Shown here: one piece after another, positions 21,334 through 29,210 of the stretch
Layout: each line of letters begins with the position of its first letter
How positions within the stretch are numbered: position 1 is the first letter of the stretch
DNA from: an uncultured Chloroflexia bacterium
GTDB lineage: Bacteria; Chloroflexota; Limnocylindria; Limnocylindrales; CSP1-4
Direction: 5' to 3'
DNA: 64,000 nucleotides
Assembly: GCA_963819655.1 (NCBI GenBank)
Contig: CAWFXA010000001.1
Span: 480,001-544,000 of the forward strand
Notes under the pieces: generated by a model
The model's database searches: none
The model's input: the letters and a program-made list of their open reading frames with translations, nothing else
Told to the model about the DNA's origin: nothing
Program-made: the position numbers and the translations under genes

Positions 21334-21521
21334 GGGTCCTCCGAGGCGGCCGATGGGGTGGTGCCGGGGGAGGCGCAAGGGTATCACCGGGCCCTTTCCG
21401 GGCCACAGCGGTTCGCCGTCACGGACGGCGATCGGGACCTTCGTACGGGTGACCATCGAGGGTCCGACGCGGTACAGATATGTCAGCGGGGGGACGTTCC
21501 ATGGGGGAACTTGGCGAAAGC

Positions 21522-23147
21522 ATGTCCGCACGACCGACGACGACGATCTCACGATCGTCGGCACGAGCGATCCGCCGCCTCACGACCGCCGCCTTCGCAT
21601 CGGAGGTCCTGCTTGCCGGGATCGCCGTCGGGGCATCGGTCGCCCTCGCCGTCCGTGCCTTCGACCCGCGGCAATCGGTCGTCGATCCTGTCGTCGTCAT
21701 CGGCGCGGCCGCGGCGACAGTCGCGGTCCTCGTCCTCGGCGGACTCGCCTTCGCGACTGCCCGCATCCGTCGCCACGCGGCCGTGCTCGATTCGGAGCGG
21801 ACCGATCTGCGCGAGGCCTACGACCGAGCTCGGCTCGATTCGCTGCGTGACGGCCTGACCGGCCTCGGCAACCATCGAGCGTTCCAGGAGGAGCTCGACG
21901 CCCAGGTGGCAGCGGCCCGGGACGACGAGTCGCCACTGGCCCTGCTGATCATCGATGTCGACGATCTCAAGAAGATCAACGATCGCAAGGGTCATGCAGC
22001 CGGCGATGAGTTGCTGCGAACGGTCGCCCAGGTCATGCGGGCGAACCTCCGACGGTCGGACCGTGCCTACCGGCTCGGCGGCGACGAATTCGCCCTGTTG
22101 CTGCCCGGCTGCGAGATCGACGACGCGGGGATCATCGCCAACCACCTGCTGGCCGCGACGCTCAGCGGGCACCACGGCCGCATCGGCGCGTTCTCGGTGA
22201 CGATCGGGATCTCCGCGTTCCCGGCTCCGAGTGCCGATCGACAGCAGCTGCTCCACCACGCCGACGCCGCCATGTACTCGGGGAAGCGGCACGGCCGGAC
22301 CAAGGTCGAACGGTTCGATCCACAGCGACACGGCATCGCCGACGACCCCAGGACACTCGCGCAGCTGGTCGCGTCGGTGGAGCGGGTGACCTCGAACGGC
22401 CAGTTACGGGCCGTCTACCAGCCGATCTTCTCGTTGCGGACCGGCGAAGTCAGCGGGTTCGAGGGCCTCGTCCGGCTCGGCCCCGACGCGGAGTTCGACG
22501 AACCGACCGCGCTCTTCGTCGCGGCCGAGGCGACCAGCCGGACGATCGAGCTCGATGTGGTGTGTGCGCAGACCGTCCTCGCCGGTGCGCGGGACCTCCA
22601 GCCCAACCAGTACCTGTCGATCAATCTCTCACCGCGGACACTGGAGTCCGACGCGTTCAGTCCGCTCGAAGTGGTCGCCCTCGCGCGACGACACGGCGTA
22701 CCCCCGGAGCAGCTCGTCATCGAGCTCACCGAACGCGAGGCGGTGGAGGATCTCGAAAGCCTCCGTGCCGCCGTCGCGACCCTGCGCCGCCAGGGCGTGC
22801 GCATCGCGCTCGACGACATCGGGGCGGGTAACGCCGGTCTGCGCCTGCTGAGCGAGGTCGATTTCGACATCATGAAGATCGACCTGTCGCTGGTTCGGGC
22901 AGGCGCCACGCACGAGCCGTCGGAGGCGGTCCTGCGCGCACTGGGCAGTTTCGCCCGCCAGCGCGGTCACCAGATCGTCGCGGAAGGGATCGAGACGCCC
23001 GATCTGCTCGAGGCGGTGTTGGAGCTCCAGTACGACGCTGGTCAGGGATACCTGTTCGGGCGGCCGGCCTCGACGATGGCGATGACCAATCTCAAGCTGG
23101 TGGATCTGATCACCGGCGCCGGCCGCTCCGAGGATCCAGCCGCCTGA
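21522..23147 (+). CDS. 2-TM GGDEF-EAL protein
   Basis: [49 protein letters not shown]. Start uncertain (21480-21522). Confidence 0.9.
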   Translation: MSARPTTTISRSSARAIRRLTTAAFASEVLLAGIAVGASVALAVRAFDPRQSVVDPVVVIGAAAATVAVLVLGGLAFATARIRRHAAVLDSERTDLREAYDRARLDSLRDGLTGLGNHRAFQEELDAQVAAARDDESPLALLIIDVDDLKKINDRKGHAAGDELLRTVAQVMRANLRRSDRAYRLGGDEFALLLPGCEIDDAGIIANHLLAATLSGHHGRIGAFSVTIGISAFPAPSADRQQLLHHADAAMYSGKRHGRTKVERFDPQRHGIADDPRTLAQLVASVERVTSNGQLRAVYQPIFSLRTGEVSGFEGLVRLGPDAEFDEPTALFVAAEATSRTIELDVVCAQTVLAGARDLQPNQYLSINLSPRTLESDAFSPLEVVALARRHGVPPEQLVIELTEREAVEDLESLRAAVATLRRQGVRIALDDIGAGNAGLRLLSEVDFDIMKIDLSLVRAGATHEPSEAVLRALGSFARQRGHQIVAEGIETPDLLEAVLELQYDAGQGYLFGRPASTMAMTNLKLVDLITGAGRSEDPAA

Positions 23148-24482: not shown

Positions 24483-24608
24483 GCGCGAGTCTAGTCACCC
24501 CCACGCCCGGCGATGGTCCCATCGCCACCCATACCTCCAGCGTGGTGCGTGGAGAGGCCACGTTGGATACAACAGGACGACGACCCTCGAGACCTAGGAC
24601 CGTGCCGT

Positions 24609-27297
24609 TTGCCGAGTTTCAACAGGGGCATCCGCAGCCATCGAGAGCCACAGGCAGGCACATCCGCTGACGCTCGCTCGCTCAGCACTGTGCCGCTGCG
24701 GCATGGTCTCGTCGCATCCGCGGAACGGATCCCCACGCACGTCCGCGTCTGGGCCCTGACCGCCTTCCTGGCGGCGCTGGCCGTCGTCGGTTACGCGGTC
24801 CTGCTGGTCGATCGTCCGGGCCGCGAGGTGCCGATCGCCATCCCGTGGCCGGTGATCGCATTCGGGTTCCTCGTCGCCGAGCTCAAGGTGGTGCAGGTCC
24901 ATTTCCGCCGCGAGACGCACGCGTTCTCGCTGAGCGAGTTCCCGGCGGTCATCGGCATGTTCTTCCTGCCGCCCGCGGAGTACCTCCTGGCTGTCCTCGT
25001 CGGATCGGCAGCCGCCTTCGTGCTCACCGGCTCGCGCCCCGTCAAGCTCGCGTTCAACCTCGCGAACTACGGGCTGATCGCGGTCATCTCGATGGCGATC
25101 CTCCTGTCGATCGCATCGCCGACCGGTCCGCCCGGCATCCGCGAGTGGGCCGCGGCCTTCACCGCGACCACGTTCGCGACGGTCCTCAGCTCGATCACGA
25201 TCGCCCTCGTCATCACCCTCTCGGGCGGCGCACCGCAATTCCAGAAGCTGCCCGAGATGATCCAGTTCGGGAGCATGGTCGCGCTGGCGAACACGAGTCT
25301 CGCGCTGCTCGCCGTCACGATCCTGTGGCTCCAGCCCATCATGCTGTGGCTTCTCGTGCTCCCGCTCGTGATGATCTTCGTCGCCTACCAGGCGTACATC
25401 TCCGAACGCGAGAAGCACGAACGGCTCGAGCTGCTCTACGAGTCCTCGCGGATCCTGCAGCTGTCGCCGGAGATCGATTTCACGCTCGTGGCGCTTCTCA
25501 GCCACGCCCGCACGATGTTCCGGGCGGAGCTCGCCGAGGTCATCCTCTACCCGCGATCACCGGACGCCGAGGGCCTGTGGGCGCGGTCGTGGCACGACCG
25601 GGACCCCGAGGTCTCCAGCCCCACCAGCGACGCCCTCCAGGACTCGCTCCACGATCTCGTCCGATCGTCGACCGGGCCGTTCATGCACGAGACCCGCGAT
25701 CCGGACGGACGCGTGCGACGGCACATGGTCAGCGCGCTGCGCGGCGAGTCGGACATCATCGGCTCGATGGTCATCACCAATCGGTTGACGGAGGGGACCT
25801 CGTTCGGGGACGACGATCTCCGGTTGCTGGAGACCCTCGCCAACCAGACGGCGGTCGCCCTCGAGAACGGCCACCTGGAGCAGTCGCTGGCCGAGCTCTC
25901 TCGCCTCAAGGAGCAGCTCCGCCACCAGGCCTACCACGACCCGCTCACCGGTCTGCCGAACCGGACCCTCTTCCTCGAATCGGTGGGTGAGCGGATCGGT
26001 TCGACCGGCCCCGAGATGCCGGTCGTCATGTTCCTTGACCTCGATGACTTCAAAGTCGTCAACGACACCCTCGGTCACGAGGCGGGGGATCGGCTGCTGT
26101 GTGATGTGGCGGGCCGTCTGCGGACGACCCTGCGGTCCGGGGATATCGCCGCCAGGCTCGGCGGCGACGAGTTCGCGATCCTGCTCGACGACGACCCGGG
26201 TCTTGCCCGAGCCGAAGCGGTCGCCGACCGGATCATCGACGCGCTCCGCGCGACGTTCCCGCTCGAAGGGCAGGAGATCACGATCGGGGTCAGCATCGGC
26301 ATCGCCGCGGCCCGATCGGGCATCAGCGCGGACGAACTGCTGCGCAACGCGGATGTCGCCATGTACACGGCGAAGGCCACCGGCAAGAACAGGGTCTCGG
26401 TCTTCGAGCCGACCGTCCATGCCGCGATCGTCGCCCGCCACGAGCTGAGCGCCGAGCTGTCGCGCAGCCTCGGTCGCGGCGAGCTCCACGTCTTCTACCA
26501 GCCGATCGTGGAGTTGGCGACCCGTCGCGTGACCGGGGTCGAGGCATTGATCCGCTGGCAGCATCCGGTCCGCGGCCTGATCGGCCCGAGCGAGTTCGTG
26601 CACCTCGCCGAGGAGACGCGCCTGATCCGGCCGCTCGGTCGCTGGGTCCTGCTCGAGGCCTGCCGCCAGGCCGCCGACTGGGCCGCGGTCATCCCGGGCG
26701 GCGACGACCTGACGATGTCGGTCAACCTGTCCGCGCAACAGCTCCAGGAGCCCGACTTCGTCAACGACCTCCGCCAGATCATCGCCGACACCGGCATCCG
26801 CCCCCACCAGCTCGTCCTCGAGATGACCGAGACGGTCATGTTCCACGACACGCTGACGACCCTGTCCCGGCTTGCAGCCATCCGCGACCTGGGCGTGCGC
26901 ATCGCGATCGACGACTTCGGGACCGGCTACTCGTCGCTCGGCTACCTCCGCCGCTTCCGGGTCGACATCCTCAAGATCGCGCGCGACTTCATCGGACCGG
27001 CAGAGCGCGAAGAGGAGTGGGCGTTCGCGAGCGCGATCGTCGCGATCGGTCGATCACTCGGAGTGACGATGGTCGCCGAGGGCATCGAGGAGACCGGTCA
27101 GCTCGATCGGCTGCTCGCGCTGGGGTGCGAGCTTGGCCAGGGATACCTGTTCGCCCGCGCCAGCTCGGGCCGAGGACATCGGCGCGCTGCTCGGCGTCGA
27201 GCCGGCGGCGAGTCGCGCGACCGGGGAGCGGGCCGCCAAGGGCGGAACAGTGGCGTCGTCGGGCCGGCGACGGACCATGGCCATCGATCCGACCTAG
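24609..27297 (+). CDS. multi-TM sensor + GAF-like + GGDEF-EAL protein; frameshift near 27168
   Basis: About 7 TM segments, then DLRLLETLANQTAVALEN, HDPLTGLPNR, RSGD..GGDEF, VEALIR, DDFGTGYSSL, QGYLF. After the frameshift it reads AEDIGALL...MAIDPT* (TAG 27295-27297). Start uncertain. Confidence 0.85.
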
Positions 27298-27318
27298 GCC
27301 TGGGTTACCGAAGCCATC

Positions 27319-27915
27319 ATGTTCATCCTGTACGCGCTCGTGATCGGCGTCGGGGTCGGGCTCGCCCTCGGTGGGCGCCCCGCAGGGCTCGGCAGCCTGC
27401 GGTTCCGCTGGTCGGGCGTGATGCTCGCCGGGCTGCTCGTCCAGGTCGTGCTGTTCTCCGACGCGGTCGCGGGACGCATCGGCGCGCTCGGACCGCCGAT
27501 CTACGTGGCGTCGACCGTGTTGGTGCTCGCCGCAGTCGTCGCCAACCGCTCCATCCCGGGCATGGCCATCGTCGCGCTGGGCGCAGTGAGCAACCTTGCC
27601 GCGATCGTCGCCAACGGCGGGTACATGCCGGCGGCCCGATCCGCCCTGGACGCCCTCGGCAAGACCGATCCGACGACGTATTCCAACAGTGCGACCGTCG
27701 AGCATCCGGCCCTCGGGCCGCTGACGGACATCTTCGCGATGCCCTCGTGGCTGCCCTTCGCGAACGTGTTCAGCGTCGGCGATATCCTCATCGTCGCCGG
27801 TGTCGTGACGACGATCGTCCTGGCGATGCGGAGCCCCGCGCAGGACGGCGAAATGGGCAGGGGTGCCCCCGAGCAACTCCCCCATCCAGCCGACCTCGCC
27901 AGTACGGTCGAGTGA
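27319..27915 (+). CDS. DUF5317-family membrane protein
   Basis: Family-like motifs GG...L..LRFRW, SNLAAIVANGGYMP and LTDIF...VFSVGD, recognised from memory. Confidence 0.8.
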   Translation: MFILYALVIGVGVGLALGGRPAGLGSLRFRWSGVMLAGLLVQVVLFSDAVAGRIGALGPPIYVASTVLVLAAVVANRSIPGMAIVALGAVSNLAAIVANGGYMPAARSALDALGKTDPTTYSNSATVEHPALGPLTDIFAMPSWLPFANVFSVGDILIVAGVVTTIVLAMRSPAQDGEMGRGAPEQLPHPADLASTVE

Positions 27916-27975
27916 CTGGTCCCGCGTCCTCGCCGGCCGCACCATCCCGAACGAGGGACGCTCGTCCCCCCGCTA

Positions 27976-28057
27976 ACCGGATCGTCCAGGGCAAACCCGT
28001 CGCGAGGCGGGGACGCAAAGCCAGGGATCTCTCATTCGAGACCGCCCGGCTGCCGGT
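27976..28057 (+). ncRNA. c-di-GMP-I (GEMM) riboswitch aptamer
   Basis: CAGGGCAAACCCGTC-GCGA-GGCGGGGACGCAAAGCC...GGCTGCCG matches the class I pattern GGCAAACC..GNRA..GGGACGCAAAGCC..GCUGCC. Confidence 0.92.
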
Positions 28058-28095
28058 CCTGCGAGCGTCGACCCTTCGCTGAAGAAGGAGAACGC

Positions 28096-28185
28096 GTGAA
28101 GGCGAACCTGGCGCGCTTCACCTGGGCACTCACGCTCCTGGCCAGCATGGCCCTGACCGTGGGAGCCGGGATCCGGTGGAACTGA
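28096..28185 (+). CDS. 29-aa signal-peptide-like small protein MKANLARFTWALTLLASMALTVGAGIRWN
   Basis: AAGGAG RBS 5 nt before GTG; GC3-rich codons; lies directly downstream of the riboswitch and upstream of a strong hairpin. Confidence 0.8.
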   Translation: MKANLARFTWALTLLASMALTVGAGIRWN

Positions 28186-28304
28186 CCGTGGCGGCATACG
28201 TCGCGGCCTCGACCGACCGGGTCCAGTCGACGACCGGGTACCACCCCGAGATCGTCATCGAGTCCGGGCACCGCTGGGGCTGAGTTCCAGCGAGCCGATC
28301 TCAT

Positions 28305-28335
28305 CGAGGGGCGCCGGCCACGCCGGCGCCCCTCG
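28305..28335 (+). terminator. GC-rich hairpin, probable terminator
   Basis: CGAGGGGCGCCGGC-CAC-GCCGGCGCCCCTCG is a 14-bp perfect stem; the U tract is weak. Confidence 0.6.
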
Positions 28336-28427
28336 TACGTGTCCGGGATGGGCGCCTGGCCTCCGGAACGGGGATCCTGGACCCACTCGTGCATGGTGCT
28401 ACTCTTGTGTGCATGGGAGGACCGCGC

Positions 28428-29210
28428 ATGACGGTTCCCTGGGTGGATGCCCCCCCGGAAGACGCTCGCCGCGCTCTTGTGCTCCATGATCGCCCAGCGG
28501 TCGTGGACCTCATCGAGCTGACGCTGAACCACGGTCTCTTCGTGGTCCGAGCCGCGCAGACCCTGACCGAGGCGATGGATCTCCTCGCGACGTGGCACCC
28601 GCATATGGCCGTCGTCGACATGGATCACGACGAGAGTGCCGACTTGCTCAAGCGCCTGGGCGCCTCCAATAACCTGGCGGCGAGCGGCACGCCCGTCCTC
28701 GGCCTCACGCGCCGCGGCGATCTGCGGAACAAGCTCAAGGCATTCGACCTCGGGGTGGACGACATCCTGGCGATGCCGTTCTCACCGGAAGAGTTGTTGG
28801 CCCGGTCGATCGTGATCACGCGTCGGGCTTCGGGGGTCGACCGACCGATCGTCCCCACGATCAGACTCGGCGAGATGGAGATCGACATCGTCAATCGTGT
28901 GGTCCGTGCGGGCTCTTCCGTGATCCACCTGAGCTCCATCGAGCAGAGCCTGTTGTACCTGCTTGCCAGCCGGGGTGGTCGGGTGATCTCCCGGGACGAG
29001 ATCCTGGACGGCGTCTGGGGCACCGACTTCGTGGCCGAGAGCAACATCGTCGATCGCCATATCCGGAGCCTGCGGATCAAGCTGCAGAACGACTACCGCC
29101 ACCCGCGCTTCATCGAGACGGTCCCGGGCAAGGGCTATCGGTTCATCCCGACATTCTCGAACCAGGGCTGGGACGGTGGGTCCGGCGCGGCCGAGGATCC
29201 GCCCGACTGA
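28428..29210 (+). CDS. OmpR-family response regulator with an atypical receiver
   Basis: GVDDILAMPFSPEELLAR plus a winged helix (SRDEILDGVWG, VDRHIRSLRIKL, IETVPGKGYRF). GGAGG RBS. Confidence 0.88.
   Translation: MTVPWVDAPPEDARRALVLHDRPAVVDLIELTLNHGLFVVRAAQTLTEAMDLLATWHPHMAVVDMDHDESADLLKRLGASNNLAASGTPVLGLTRRGDLRNKLKAFDLGVDDILAMPFSPEELLARSIVITRRASGVDRPIVPTIRLGEMEIDIVNRVVRAGSSVIHLSSIEQSLLYLLASRGGRVISRDEILDGVWGTDFVAESNIVDRHIRSLRIKLQNDYRHPRFIETVPGKGYRFIPTFSNQGWDGGSGAAEDPPD

What the first reader, a model, noticed from the sequence alone, without database searches (positions are those of the whole stretch)
24609..28335. Candidate new peptide-signalling circuit coupled to c-di-GMP (sensor-GGDEF/EAL + DUF5317 + riboswitch + pre-peptide)
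Seen: four co-oriented elements in a row, namely a ~7-TM sensor fused to GAF-GGDEF-EAL, a DUF5317 membrane protein 21 nt downstream, a c-di-GMP-I riboswitch, and a 29-aa hydrophobic ORF closed by a hairpin. Known: Agr-type systems pair a pre-peptide, a membrane peptidase and a membrane receptor, but they signal through a histidine kinase. Inference: DUF5317 matures the peptide, the TM domain senses it and changes c-di-GMP, and the riboswitch feeds back on peptide synthesis. That would be an autoinduction loop whose output is a second messenger. I know of no characterised system with this layout.
Basis: partly seen in the sequence, partly recalled or inferred. Interest (0 to 1): 0.92.

Follow-up and report, generated by a model that had tools for sequence, protein, structure and literature searches.

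The report
Riboswitch-driven mini-peptides beside c-di-GMP enzymes
A tiny membrane peptide gene switched by a c-di-GMP-type riboswitch sits, in many soil Chloroflexota, next to an uncharacterised membrane protein (DUF5317) and a membrane-bound c-di-GMP enzyme, which points to an undescribed feedback or signalling module for this second messenger.

Summary
All four elements are real: a 7-TM-GAF-GGDEF-EAL gene, DUF5317, an Rfam-scoring riboswitch and a 29-aa ORF. Corrections: the riboswitch is the variant family c-di-GMP-I-GGC (RF03167). The sensor gene carries one extra base (27159) in this assembly. A second small ORF lies between the 29-aa ORF and the hairpin.

The 29-aa ORF is a true gene. 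In 54 distinct homologous DNA sequences, variation is highest at codon position 3, and seven residues are invariant.

The layout recurs. Of 80 related DUF5317 loci, 58 have the riboswitch just downstream, and 57 of those have the peptide.

Elsewhere the parts are swapped but the logic is kept. In other Chloroflexota, DUF5317 sits beside HD-GYP phosphodiesterase genes (24 of 40 loci) and similar mini-ORFs. In DUF5317-MFS loci, including a second one in this genome, a class II c-di-GMP riboswitch precedes a mini-peptide, HD-GYP and DUF5317-MFS.

Peptide maturation by DUF5317, secretion and sensing are untested, because structure and complex predictions could not be run. My best reading is a c-di-GMP feedback loop through membrane mini-peptides. 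The autoinducer version remains a live rival.

The parts
24513..27297 (+). Gene for a 7-TM / GAF / GGDEF / EAL protein. The reading frame is broken by one extra base at 27159; the corrected stop is 27295-27297.
   Evidence: Pfam EAL 228.3, GGDEF 150.6, GAF_3 36.7 bits. Motifs read in the translation. Frameshift shown against 6 of 6 orthologs.
24729..25385 (+). Membrane input domain (seven predicted TM segments, aa 73-291). It matches no Pfam or NCBIfam family and may be related to the N-terminal TM domains of DUF5317-linked HD-GYP proteins (MASE9-like).
   Evidence: Hydropathy. No family found. hhalign against HD-GYP N-terminal domains: probability 83%, E 8.4e-6, 124 columns.
27159..27159 (+). 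Extra G that shifts the frame of the sensor gene 46 codons before its normal stop. Probably an assembly error, but unproven.
   Evidence: Alignment with L053, L054, L055, L058, L060 and L095. L053 and L095 carry other indels.
27319..27915 (+). DUF5317 membrane protein, 198 aa, five predicted TM segments. Invariant N92, M103-P104, D137 and G154-D155 lie at the predicted outer face.
   Evidence: PF17248 92.6 bits. Invariant columns across 30 sequences down to 22% identity. Topology.
27981..28058 (+). Riboswitch aptamer, Rfam family c-di-GMP-I-GGC (RF03167).
   Evidence: 65.8 bits against a gathering score of 59. 29 genus-level aptamers align with changes on both arms of the second stem.
28073..28090 (+). 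Small hairpin pairing CCUUC with the GAAGG of the Shine-Dalgarno AAGGAG (28085-28090). Likely a translational expression platform.
   Evidence: Fold. Homologous loci show different arm sequences that still pair with their own SD (listing). RNAalifold gave no consensus, so this rests on reading by eye.
28096..28185 (+). PEP1: 29-aa single-helix peptide MKANLARFTWALTLLASMALTVGAGIRWN. GTG start. Invariant K2, R7, G23-A24-G25, R27, W28.
   Evidence: ORF. Coding signature over 54 distinct DNA sequences. 136 cluster representatives at E<=0.001 in 1.84 billion proteins. RNA-library contigs cover it.
28176..28283 (+). PEP2: second small ORF (35 aa as listed, start uncertain) ending ESGHRWG. It is a degenerate form of a paralogous 33-aa helix peptide that ends EAG[QH]RW in other genomes.
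   Evidence: ORF. Homologs after 44 of 56 PEP1 copies. Coding signature for the canonical form over 25 sequences.
28305..28335 (+). 14-bp G+C stem-loop closing the PEP1-PEP2 unit. No U tract.
   Evidence: -35.3 kcal/mol, z -4.4. Not called by the consensus terminator scan.

Best explanation
This is one copy of a conserved, undescribed c-di-GMP module with four parts:
1. a c-di-GMP-type riboswitch;
2. one or two mini-peptide genes (about 29-33 aa: basic N-terminus, one helix, a small-residue motif, then [KR] and an aromatic residue);
3. DUF5317;
4. a membrane-anchored c-di-GMP enzyme.

Most likely working: the riboswitch sets how much peptide is translated, through a hairpin that covers the ribosome-binding site. 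The peptide inserts in the membrane N-in, so its G-A-G-x-R-W end sits at the outer leaflet. There it meets the conserved Asn/Asp face of DUF5317. Together they act on the intramembrane input domain of the GGDEF-EAL (elsewhere HD-GYP) enzyme and shift c-di-GMP synthesis against breakdown. This closes a cell-autonomous feedback loop.

Shown: the parts, their conservation, the coding status of the peptides, and the linkage.
Inferred: membrane orientation, physical contact, the direction of regulation, and whether the peptide is cut.

I put about 0.85 on 'functionally coupled module' and 0.45 on this cell-autonomous version.
For: The peptide is a gene:
- Over 54 distinct homologous DNA sequences, entropy is 0.57 / 0.32 / 0.97 at codon positions 1 / 2 / 3.
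- G23, A24, G25, R27 and W28 are invariant, while the third positions of G23-R27 vary by 1.2-1.8 bits; W28 has only one codon.
- The start is GTG in 52 and ATG in 2, and an SD-like purine run lies upstream in the 54 listed.

Linkage within the class:
- 58 of 80 DUF5317 loci carry the riboswitch on the same strand. 57 of the 58 carry the peptide, and the other is cut by a contig end.
- 49 of the 58 also carry the sensor; 7 of the other 9 have under 1.9 kb of upstream flank.
- Gene order differs between lineages (sensor before DUF5317, or after the peptides), yet the set stays together.
- Across 121 class genomes: 13 have both peptide and sensor, 2 peptide only, 7 sensor only, 99 neither.

Parts are swapped but the logic is kept:
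- L196 and L209: HD-GYP, DUF5317, RF03167, PEP1, PEP2.
- L160, from another class: c-di-GMP-II aptamer, two identical 31-aa ORFs, TM-HD-GYP, DUF5317.
- DUF5317-MFS loci: HD-GYP directly upstream in 19 of 19; a mini-ORF upstream of it in 13 of 19; RF01786 over its cut-off in 13 of 20. One of these is in this genome.
- Other classes: HD-GYP within 3.3 kb of DUF5317 in 24 of 40 loci, against 9-12 such genes per 3.2-4.4 Mb genome.
- Mini-ORFs of the same build occur in 14 of 39 such loci, against 0 hits in 139 kb of control DNA.

Geometry: the DUF5317 invariant residues cluster at the predicted outer face.

Transcripts: RNA-library contigs from 4 runs in 3 studies match 27994-28260 with 0-2 differences.

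Precedent: c-di-GMP riboswitch-controlled small membrane proteins exist in C. difficile (PMC13724677; abstract and sections 7 and 14 read).
Against: - No contact between any two parts has been shown or modelled.
- Seven sensor homologs at 39-44% identity stand without DUF5317, aptamer or peptide in the 8.5-16 kb fetched around them.
- 18 of the 80 DUF5317 loci have neither riboswitch nor peptide.
- A DUF5317 with two invariant aspartates looks more like an enzyme or transporter than a passive partner. Its frequent fusion to MFS exporters (most of the 79 longer forms) favours processing or export.
- PEP2 variants without a hydrophobic helix keep only the C-terminal G-H-R-W motif. An in-membrane role does not explain this.
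- Genomes of one class are kin, so the counts overstate independent support.
- I could not read any validation of the ligand of the GGC variant aptamer.
Confidence: 0.45

Rival explanations
1. PEP1/PEP2 are pre-peptides. DUF5317 is an intramembrane aspartyl peptidase that cuts at the small-residue motif (G-A-G, S-G-A-P or G-G-A-S) and frees a 3-10-residue Trp/Phe-containing tail. Where DUF5317 is fused to MFS, the pair processes and exports. The tail is sensed by the TM domain of the c-di-GMP enzyme, in the same or in neighbouring cells, and the riboswitch feeds back on peptide synthesis.
For: - The peptide is built like a signal peptide: a basic N-region, a hydrophobic core, and small residues at -3/-1.
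- The tail after R-W varies in length from 0 to 8 residues while the motif is fixed.
- DUF5317 has two invariant Asp 18 residues apart at the outer face.
- 11 of 24 members give weak Peptidase_A8 hits, best E 0.0028. A low-confidence hhalign puts both Asp opposite the two conserved Asp motifs of the genome's LspA family.
- Most of the 79 longer DUF5317 forms are fused to MFS transporters (PF07690/PF05977).
- Helix-less PEP2 forms keep only the C-terminal motif.
- Peptide genes are duplicated in tandem.
Against: - The similarity to LspA is not significant: 16.5 bits against a cut-off of 25, hhalign probability 7% and 0.7%, and no PDB sequence hit.
- K2, L5, R7, F8, T9 and the helix are as conserved as the tail.
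- The freed product would be only 3-5 residues in most genomes, with R-W invariant. That leaves little room for strain specificity.
- After an outer-face cut no exporter would be needed.
- Nothing shows secretion.
Confidence: 0.3
2. The peptides are c-di-GMP output effectors, not feedback elements. They are small regulatory subunits of DUF5317, a transporter-like protein that is often fused to MFS, in the way small proteins tune pumps and transporters. The neighbouring c-di-GMP enzyme genes are merely co-regulated.
For: - The tightest core is DUF5317 plus peptide. 4 loci, and this genome's second DUF5317 locus, have a peptide but no riboswitch or enzyme gene nearby.
- DUF5317-MFS fusions are common.
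- Small proteins binding transporters is a well-known theme (recalled, not from a call).
Against: - The enzyme partner is retained through gene-order changes and through the swap of GGDEF-EAL for HD-GYP.
- The enzymes appear to share a related TM input domain. That would be odd for mere passengers.
Confidence: 0.12
3. The mini-peptides are membrane-active toxins or leaderless two-peptide bacteriocins made at a given c-di-GMP level. DUF5317 (with or without MFS) is the immunity or export protein.
For: Two adjacent short helical peptides with small-residue motifs and an aromatic end. DUF5317 is often fused to an MFS transporter domain. Duplicated copies.
Against: The systematic pairing with c-di-GMP-making or c-di-GMP-breaking enzymes is unexplained. 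The peptides carry little net charge. No other bacteriocin genes were seen in the loci mapped. 0 matches to Pfam or NCBIfam families.
Confidence: 0.08
4. The small ORFs are not translated. The conserved sequence is part of the riboswitch expression platform or a small RNA, and the gene neighbourhood is inherited synteny without shared function.
For: Short ORFs arise easily in DNA of about 70% G+C. Most supporting genomes belong to one class.
Against: - Variation peaks at codon position 3 while residues stay invariant.
- A start codon and an SD-like purine run are listed upstream in all 54 sequences.
- Analogous ORFs with different sequence follow a different riboswitch class.
- Gene order is rearranged yet the set is kept.
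Confidence: 0.03

Closest known systems
C. difficile CD1980.2 family: small membrane proteins under class I c-di-GMP riboswitches (Nat Commun 2026, PMC13724677; abstract and sections 7 and 14 read)
   Same: A c-di-GMP riboswitch directly precedes a very small, hydrophobic, multi-copy protein gene. The gene was overlooked by annotation.
   Different: Those proteins are 58 aa. The paper reports no homologs outside C. difficile. They act on sporulation and are not described next to c-di-GMP enzymes or DUF5317. Here the peptides are 29-35 aa with a fixed C-terminal motif and always sit with DUF5317. Sequence similarity was not tested, because I had no sequence from a tool.
MASE9-type membrane sensor domains of HD-GYP and GGDEF-EAL proteins (Galperin and Chou, bioRxiv 10.1101/2021.11.05.467447; passages read)
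   Same: An integral-membrane input domain shared by HD-GYP and GGDEF-EAL outputs. The authors think its ligand binds within the membrane, and no ligand is known.
   Different: The window's TM domain gives no Pfam MASE9 hit. Only the HD-GYP partners give weak ones: E 0.0032 and 0.078, both below the cut-off. The text held does not mention DUF5317 or neighbouring genes (0 occurrences each).
Small membrane-protein feedback on a membrane sensor, such as MgrB on PhoQ (recalled, not from a call)
   Same: A mini membrane protein whose synthesis depends on the pathway's own output acts back on the membrane sensor.
   Different: There the output is a phosphorelay and control is transcriptional. Here the output would be c-di-GMP read by an RNA, and a third conserved protein (DUF5317) takes part.
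Agr- and Phr-type peptide quorum sensing (recalled)
   Same: A short precursor gene next to a polytopic membrane protein and a membrane receptor. Precursor genes are duplicated.
   Different: DUF5317 gives no AgrB-type hit in Pfam. The adjacent membrane receptor has GGDEF-EAL or HD-GYP output domains, not a histidine-kinase domain. Secretion is not shown, and control is by riboswitch.
Signal peptidase II (LspA, Peptidase_A8)
   Same: A small polytopic protein with two conserved Asp near the outer leaflet, about 18-19 residues apart. Its substrate motif is small residues at the end of a signal-type helix.
   Different: Below every significance threshold here. The peptides have no lipobox cysteine. 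The genome has its own ordinary LspA elsewhere.

Membership tests
c-di-GMP-I-GGC riboswitch (Rfam RF03167) | Covariance-model score at or above the curated gathering score | tested here: met
   65.8 bits against 59, full length 1-80 of 80. Same result in the genome search.
c-di-GMP-I-GGC riboswitch (Rfam RF03167) | Stems kept through compensatory changes | tested here: inconclusive
   In the 29-aptamer alignment, peptide-type and other aptamers differ on both arms of the second stem (CACGGGCC...GGTAGCCGGG against CAGGGATC...GACCGCCCGG). I did not run a pair-count test.
c-di-GMP-I-GGC riboswitch (Rfam RF03167) | Binds c-di-GMP | not testable with these tools
   The 3 papers that name the family mention it once each. 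No validation was found in the passages read. Indirect support: paralogous modules use class II c-di-GMP aptamers in the same position.
DUF5317 (Pfam PF17248) | Profile score above the curated cut-off | tested here: met
   92.6 bits against 25, profile positions 2-150 of 151.
Signal peptidase II (Peptidase_A8, PF01252) | Profile score above the cut-off, or significant profile-profile similarity | tested here: not met
   16.5 bits against 25. 11 of 24 members give weak hits, best E 0.0028. hhalign probability 7% and 0.7%. No PDB sequence hit.
Signal peptidase II (Peptidase_A8, PF01252) | LspA-like fold with a catalytic Asp dyad | not tested
Two invariant Asp exist (D137, D155).
GGDEF diguanylate cyclase / EAL phosphodiesterase | Domain scores and signature motifs | tested here: met
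   GGDEF 150.6 and EAL 228.3 bits. GGDEF, RxxD, EAL, DDFGTG and EGIE were read in the translation. The last 7 profile positions of EAL lie behind the frameshift.
MASE9 (PF20972) | Profile match of the TM domain | tested here: not met
   0 families at E up to 5 for the window's TM domain. It is related at 83% hhalign probability to the TM domains of DUF5317-linked HD-GYP proteins. Two of those give sub-threshold MASE9 hits.
Agr-type quorum sensing | AgrB-family peptidase and AgrC-type histidine kinase beside the precursor | tested here: not met
   The Pfam scans of DUF5317 and of the sensor list no AgrB or histidine-kinase family.
C. difficile CD1980.2 small-protein family | Sequence homology to the 58-aa proteins | not tested
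   No sequence of that family was available from a tool. The paper states there are no homologs outside C. difficile.

The most novel reading that the evidence does not exclude
DUF5317 founds a new family of intramembrane aspartyl peptidases. Each is paired with its own mini-precursor. It releases, or when fused to MFS exports, a very short Trp/Phe-ending peptide. That peptide is the long-sought ligand of MASE9-like membrane domains. The result is a peptide autoinduction circuit whose output is c-di-GMP and whose precursor synthesis is gated by c-di-GMP riboswitches of two different classes.
Probability: 0.3. Interest if true: 0.95.

Novelty: new variant of a known kind. Interest (0 to 1): 0.85.

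Why it matters
- **A first lead on DUF5317.** The family occurs in 92 of 301 sampled Chloroflexota genomes and also in the Thermus and Thermotoga control genomes. No paper in the library searched mentions it. This gives it a testable functional context.
- **A candidate ligand for an orphan sensor domain.** MASE9-like input domains of c-di-GMP enzymes have no known signal. These peptides are concrete candidate ligands or partners.
- **An unusual circuit.** Two unrelated c-di-GMP riboswitch classes have been recruited to the same task, driving a mini-peptide gene beside c-di-GMP enzymes. This suggests a general design in which an RNA sensor of the messenger controls a membrane mini-protein that acts back on the messenger's own enzymes.
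- **Missed genes.** The family of 29-35-aa genes matches no Pfam or NCBIfam family, yet it has at least 136 cluster representatives in public data.

Tried and rejected
Not run:
- Structure prediction of DUF5317. So no fold search was made.
- Complex prediction of DUF5317 with PEP1. The queue was full, and there was no usable answer. No job ran, so there is no verdict.

Searches that found nothing:
- Sequence searches of solved structures with DUF5317 alone and with two profiles.
- ESM Atlas: the window sequence is not held, and a stored homolog gave no usable hit.
- NCBIfam for PEP1, PEP2, the L160 peptide and the TM domain.
- The consensus promoter and terminator scan of 27200-28500.

Weak or inconclusive:
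- hhalign of DUF5317 against an LspA alignment from 22 genomes of the order: probability 7% and 0.7%.
- BLASTP of the window's TM domain against the L160 HD-GYP: E 0.06-0.11.
- RNAalifold on 26 aptamer-to-start-codon spacers gave no consensus structure. The SD-hairpin covariation is therefore only read by eye.

Read-laying caveats:
- Depth over the aptamer is inflated by relatives.
- The thin cover of the flanking genes is not used as evidence.

Rejected ideas:
- The response regulator at 28389-29210 belongs to the module: it was not found in the 18 other loci mapped.
- The riboswitch regulates that regulator: a strong hairpin and two conserved ORFs lie between them.

Full report
**1. What is in the window**

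- **Sensor gene.** The translation of 24513-27140 contains GAF (GAF_3 36.7 bits), GGDEF (150.6) and EAL (228.3) domains. Seven hydrophobic segments precede them at aa 73-291. That membrane part matches no Pfam or NCBIfam family. GGDEF, an RxxD site five residues before it, EAL, DDFGTG and EGIE are all legible in the translation.
- **Frameshift.** As assembled, the frame has no stop until 28082. Aligned with six orthologs, the window has one extra G at 27159 that all six lack. Without it the protein ends ...TMAIDPT* at 27295-27297, which is 21 nt before the next gene. Two of the orthologous records (L053, L095) carry other indels. I therefore read this as a probable assembly error, though a real pseudogene is not excluded.
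- **DUF5317.** 27319-27915; PF17248, 92.6 bits.
- **Riboswitch.** 27981-28058 scores 65.8 bits against the Rfam family c-di-GMP-I-GGC (gathering score 59). It is the only Rfam hit in the 64 kb.
- **Small ORFs.** A GTG at 28096, six bases after AAGGAG, opens a 29-aa ORF. A second small ORF, 28176-28283, overlaps its end.
- **Hairpin.** A 14-bp G+C hairpin at 28305-28335 closes the unit: -35.3 kcal/mol, z -4.4.

**2. The small ORF is a gene**

- Of 30 RF03167 hits fetched from 24 genomes of the same genus plus the window's own genome, 12 are followed by a homolog of this ORF. One more is cut by a contig end.
- Across 54 distinct homologous DNA sequences, entropy at codon positions 1 / 2 / 3 is 0.57 / 0.32 / 0.97.
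- K2, R7, G23, A24, G25, R27 and W28 never change. The third positions of G23-R27 vary by 1.2-1.8 bits.
- 52 start with GTG and 2 with ATG. An SD-like purine run lies upstream in the 54 listed.
- A profile of 30 such peptides finds 136 cluster representatives at E<=0.001, and 25 at E<=1e-10, among 1.84 billion proteins.
- Contigs from RNA libraries of 4 runs in 3 studies (soil, rhizosphere, sediment) match 27994-28260 with 0-2 differences. Such contigs show presence in an RNA library, not a level.
- The second ORF is the local, degenerate form of a paralog. Its canonical version is about 33 aa, one helix, ending E-A-G-[QH]-R-W. It follows 44 of 56 PEP1 copies and has its own coding signature of 0.83 / 0.44 / 1.18 over 25 sequences. 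In the window's lineage only the C-terminal E-S-G-H-R-W-G is kept.

**3. The four-part layout is conserved**

- Mapping 18 regions around genus riboswitches showed two gene orders:
  - sensor, DUF5317, riboswitch, PEP1, PEP2;
  - DUF5317, riboswitch, peptides (sometimes two cassettes), sensor.
- A scan of one genome per species with a DUF5317 alignment returned 80 loci. All are Limnocylindrales-like Chloroflexota MAGs by their record titles, apart from four titles naming other phyla (Patescibacteria, Methylomirabilota, Verrucomicrobiia and Sulfomarinibacteraceae).
- A covariance model built from 29 aptamers hit 58 of the 80 loci on the DUF5317 strand.
  - 57 of the 58 have a peptide-profile hit. 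The other ends 190 nt after DUF5317.
  - 49 of the 58 hold the sensor. Of the other nine, seven have under 1.9 kb of upstream flank.
  - Four further loci have a peptide without a riboswitch, and 18 have neither.
- In two searches of 121 genomes of the class, which show identical family totals, 13 hold both PEP1 and the sensor. In 12 of these the two lie within about 3.5 kb on one contig. Two hold PEP1 only, seven the sensor only, and 99 neither.
- The seven 'sensor only' genes are more distant (39-44% identity). They have no DUF5317, aptamer or peptide in the 8.5-16 kb fetched.
- The two 'PEP1 only' genomes have HD-GYP, DUF5317, riboswitch, PEP1, PEP2 (L196, L209).

**4. The logic extends beyond this module**

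- DUF5317 occurs in 92 of 301 sampled Chloroflexota genomes. One of these, G271, is unpublished and adds only to that tally.
- In 40 DUF5317 loci of 7 kb each, 39 of them from other classes, an HD-GYP (HD_5) gene lies within 3.3 kb in 24, and on the same strand in 23. Five of those genomes hold only 9-12 such genes in 3.2-4.4 Mb.
- A pattern for 'hydrophobic helix, small-residue motif, 1-14 residues, stop' finds mini-ORFs in 14 of the 39 loci, and none in 139 kb of control DNA.
- In L160 the whole set appears with other parts: a class II c-di-GMP aptamer (RF01786 52.7 bits against 53.5; RF03169 40.9 against 40), two identical 31-aa ORFs, a 497-aa TM-HD-GYP, and DUF5317.
- The class also has a DUF5317-MFS fusion.
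  - In 19 such loci an HD-GYP gene lies directly upstream in all 19.
  - A mini-ORF ending A-G-G-A-[SG]-x-[KR]-G-[FW] lies upstream of that in 13. The control gave 1 hit in 139 kb.
  - RF01786 passes its cut-off just upstream of the mini-ORF region in 13 of 20 loci.
- One of these 20 is in the window's own genome (contig C2): class II riboswitch, a 29-aa ORF, HD-GYP, DUF5317-MFS.
- The third DUF5317 gene of this genome is followed by a PEP2-like ORF with no riboswitch hit by sequence pattern; no covariance-model search was run on that locus.

**5. What DUF5317 looks like**

- Thirty sequences down to 22% identity keep G88, N92, M103, P104, D137, G154, D155 and G161 invariant. I96, N99, G101, L132, L135 and S152 are nearly invariant.
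- Hydropathy and charge give five TM segments, N-terminus out and C-terminus in. The 52-residue loop (98-149) and the start of TM5 are outside, so the conserved polar residues face the outer leaflet.
- Resemblance to signal peptidase II is suggestive but not significant. No solved structure matches by sequence.
- Of 79 longer DUF5317 proteins, most are fusions to MFS transporters (PF07690, PF05977).
- A few apparent GGDEF or EAL fusions may be frameshift artefacts like the one in this window.

**6. The sensor's membrane domain**

It aligns with the N-terminal TM domains of DUF5317-linked HD-GYP proteins at 83% hhalign probability (E 8.4e-6, 124 columns). Two of those proteins give sub-threshold MASE9 hits. 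MASE9 was described as a membrane sensor found with both HD-GYP and GGDEF-EAL outputs. Its ligand is unknown and was thought to bind within the membrane (passages read).

**7. How it most likely works**

- **Shown.** The riboswitch is always the element directly before the first peptide gene. The SD lies in a small hairpin. The peptide, DUF5317 and a membrane c-di-GMP enzyme travel together while riboswitch class, enzyme type and gene order change.
- **Inferred.**
  - The messenger level sets peptide synthesis.
  - The peptide inserts N-in, given K2 and R7 against a single R27.
  - Its G-A-G-x-R-W end meets the Asn/Asp face of DUF5317.
  - The pair acts on the enzyme's intramembrane input domain, closing a loop on c-di-GMP.
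- **Odds.** I put 0.45 on a cell-autonomous loop with a membrane-resident peptide. The second is favoured by the signal-peptide-like build, the invariant Asp pair, the MFS fusions and the helix-less PEP2 forms. It is disfavoured by the strong conservation of the N-terminus and helix, and by the tiny, nearly invariant product.
- **Open.** Whether the switch turns synthesis on or off with ligand.

**8. Comparison with what is known**

- No paper in the library mentions DUF5317.
- Three papers name c-di-GMP-I-GGC, once each.
- No paper combines HD-GYP, Chloroflexi, peptide and quorum.
- The closest precedent is the C. difficile family of 58-aa membrane proteins under class I c-di-GMP riboswitches. 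It shares the 'riboswitch then mini membrane protein' step. As described in the parts I read, it has no link to c-di-GMP enzymes or DUF5317.
- I therefore file the finding as a new variant of a known kind, with a categorically new reading still open.

**9. Limits**

- No structure or complex could be computed.
- All linkage evidence is comparative and comes from one phylum, mostly from MAGs of one class. Relatives are not independent.
These include the MASE9 figure S5 and the C. difficile supplements, which may bear on domain borders and on peptide sequences.

Noticed in passing
L006-L012, L015, L016 (same-genus genomes), starting about 10-13 nt after each RF03167 aptamer: A second, unrelated family of 35-aa hydrophobic ORFs, with a strong SD (AGGAGGTGG) and ending ...AAAA-x-F-H-R or similar, follows 9 of the 30 genus riboswitch hits. 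So this riboswitch family drives at least two different mini-peptide families.
   Followed up: partly
G000:C1:464653-464729 (minus strand; outside the window, L002): The genome's second RF03167 aptamer (64.6 bits) precedes a large Pro/Thr-rich protein with one N-terminal membrane helix. Homologous arrangements occur in L023, L025 and L028. L013, L014 and L026 have signal-peptide proteins after the aptamer.
   Followed up: partly
window 27159: A single extra G breaks the sensor gene's frame. 6 of 6 orthologs lack it. Other records of the same kind (L053, L095) show other indels, which suggests long-read assembly errors.
   Followed up: yes
window 27271-27297: The last residues of the sensor (…R-x-M-A-[IVA]-D-P-T, then stop) are conserved in the five orthologs whose tail reads in frame, although the preceding 30 residues are not. 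The reason is unknown: it could be a C-terminal motif or a signal for translating DUF5317.
   Followed up: no
window 21480-23147 (+): A second, two-TM GGDEF-EAL gene (GGDEF 136.1, EAL 166.2 bits) lies 1.4 kb upstream of the sensor. A homolog at 31-40% identity to the sensor's domains lies next to the module in 9 of the 18 other regions mapped.
   Followed up: partly
L034/L097, L037, L041, L082, L126 (related genomes): Two riboswitch-peptide cassettes stand in tandem about 500-630 nt apart. L160 has two identical peptide genes after one class II aptamer.
   Followed up: partly
window 28176-28283 and homologs: Helix-less PEP2 variants (16-35 aa) keep only P-x-[SA]-G-H-R-W-x at the C-terminus. 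Neither the in-membrane reading nor the outer-face cleavage reading explains a soluble peptide with this motif.
   Followed up: partly
window 28389-29210 (+): An OmpR-type response regulator (Response_reg 40.5, Trans_reg_C 80.8 bits) follows the hairpin. It was not found in the 18 other regions mapped, so it is probably not part of the module.
   Followed up: partly
L180 6893-7001 (another Chloroflexota class): A c-di-AMP riboswitch (RF00379, 80.7 bits, cut by the locus end) lies 3 kb from a DUF5317 gene that has its own upstream mini-ORF.
   Followed up: no
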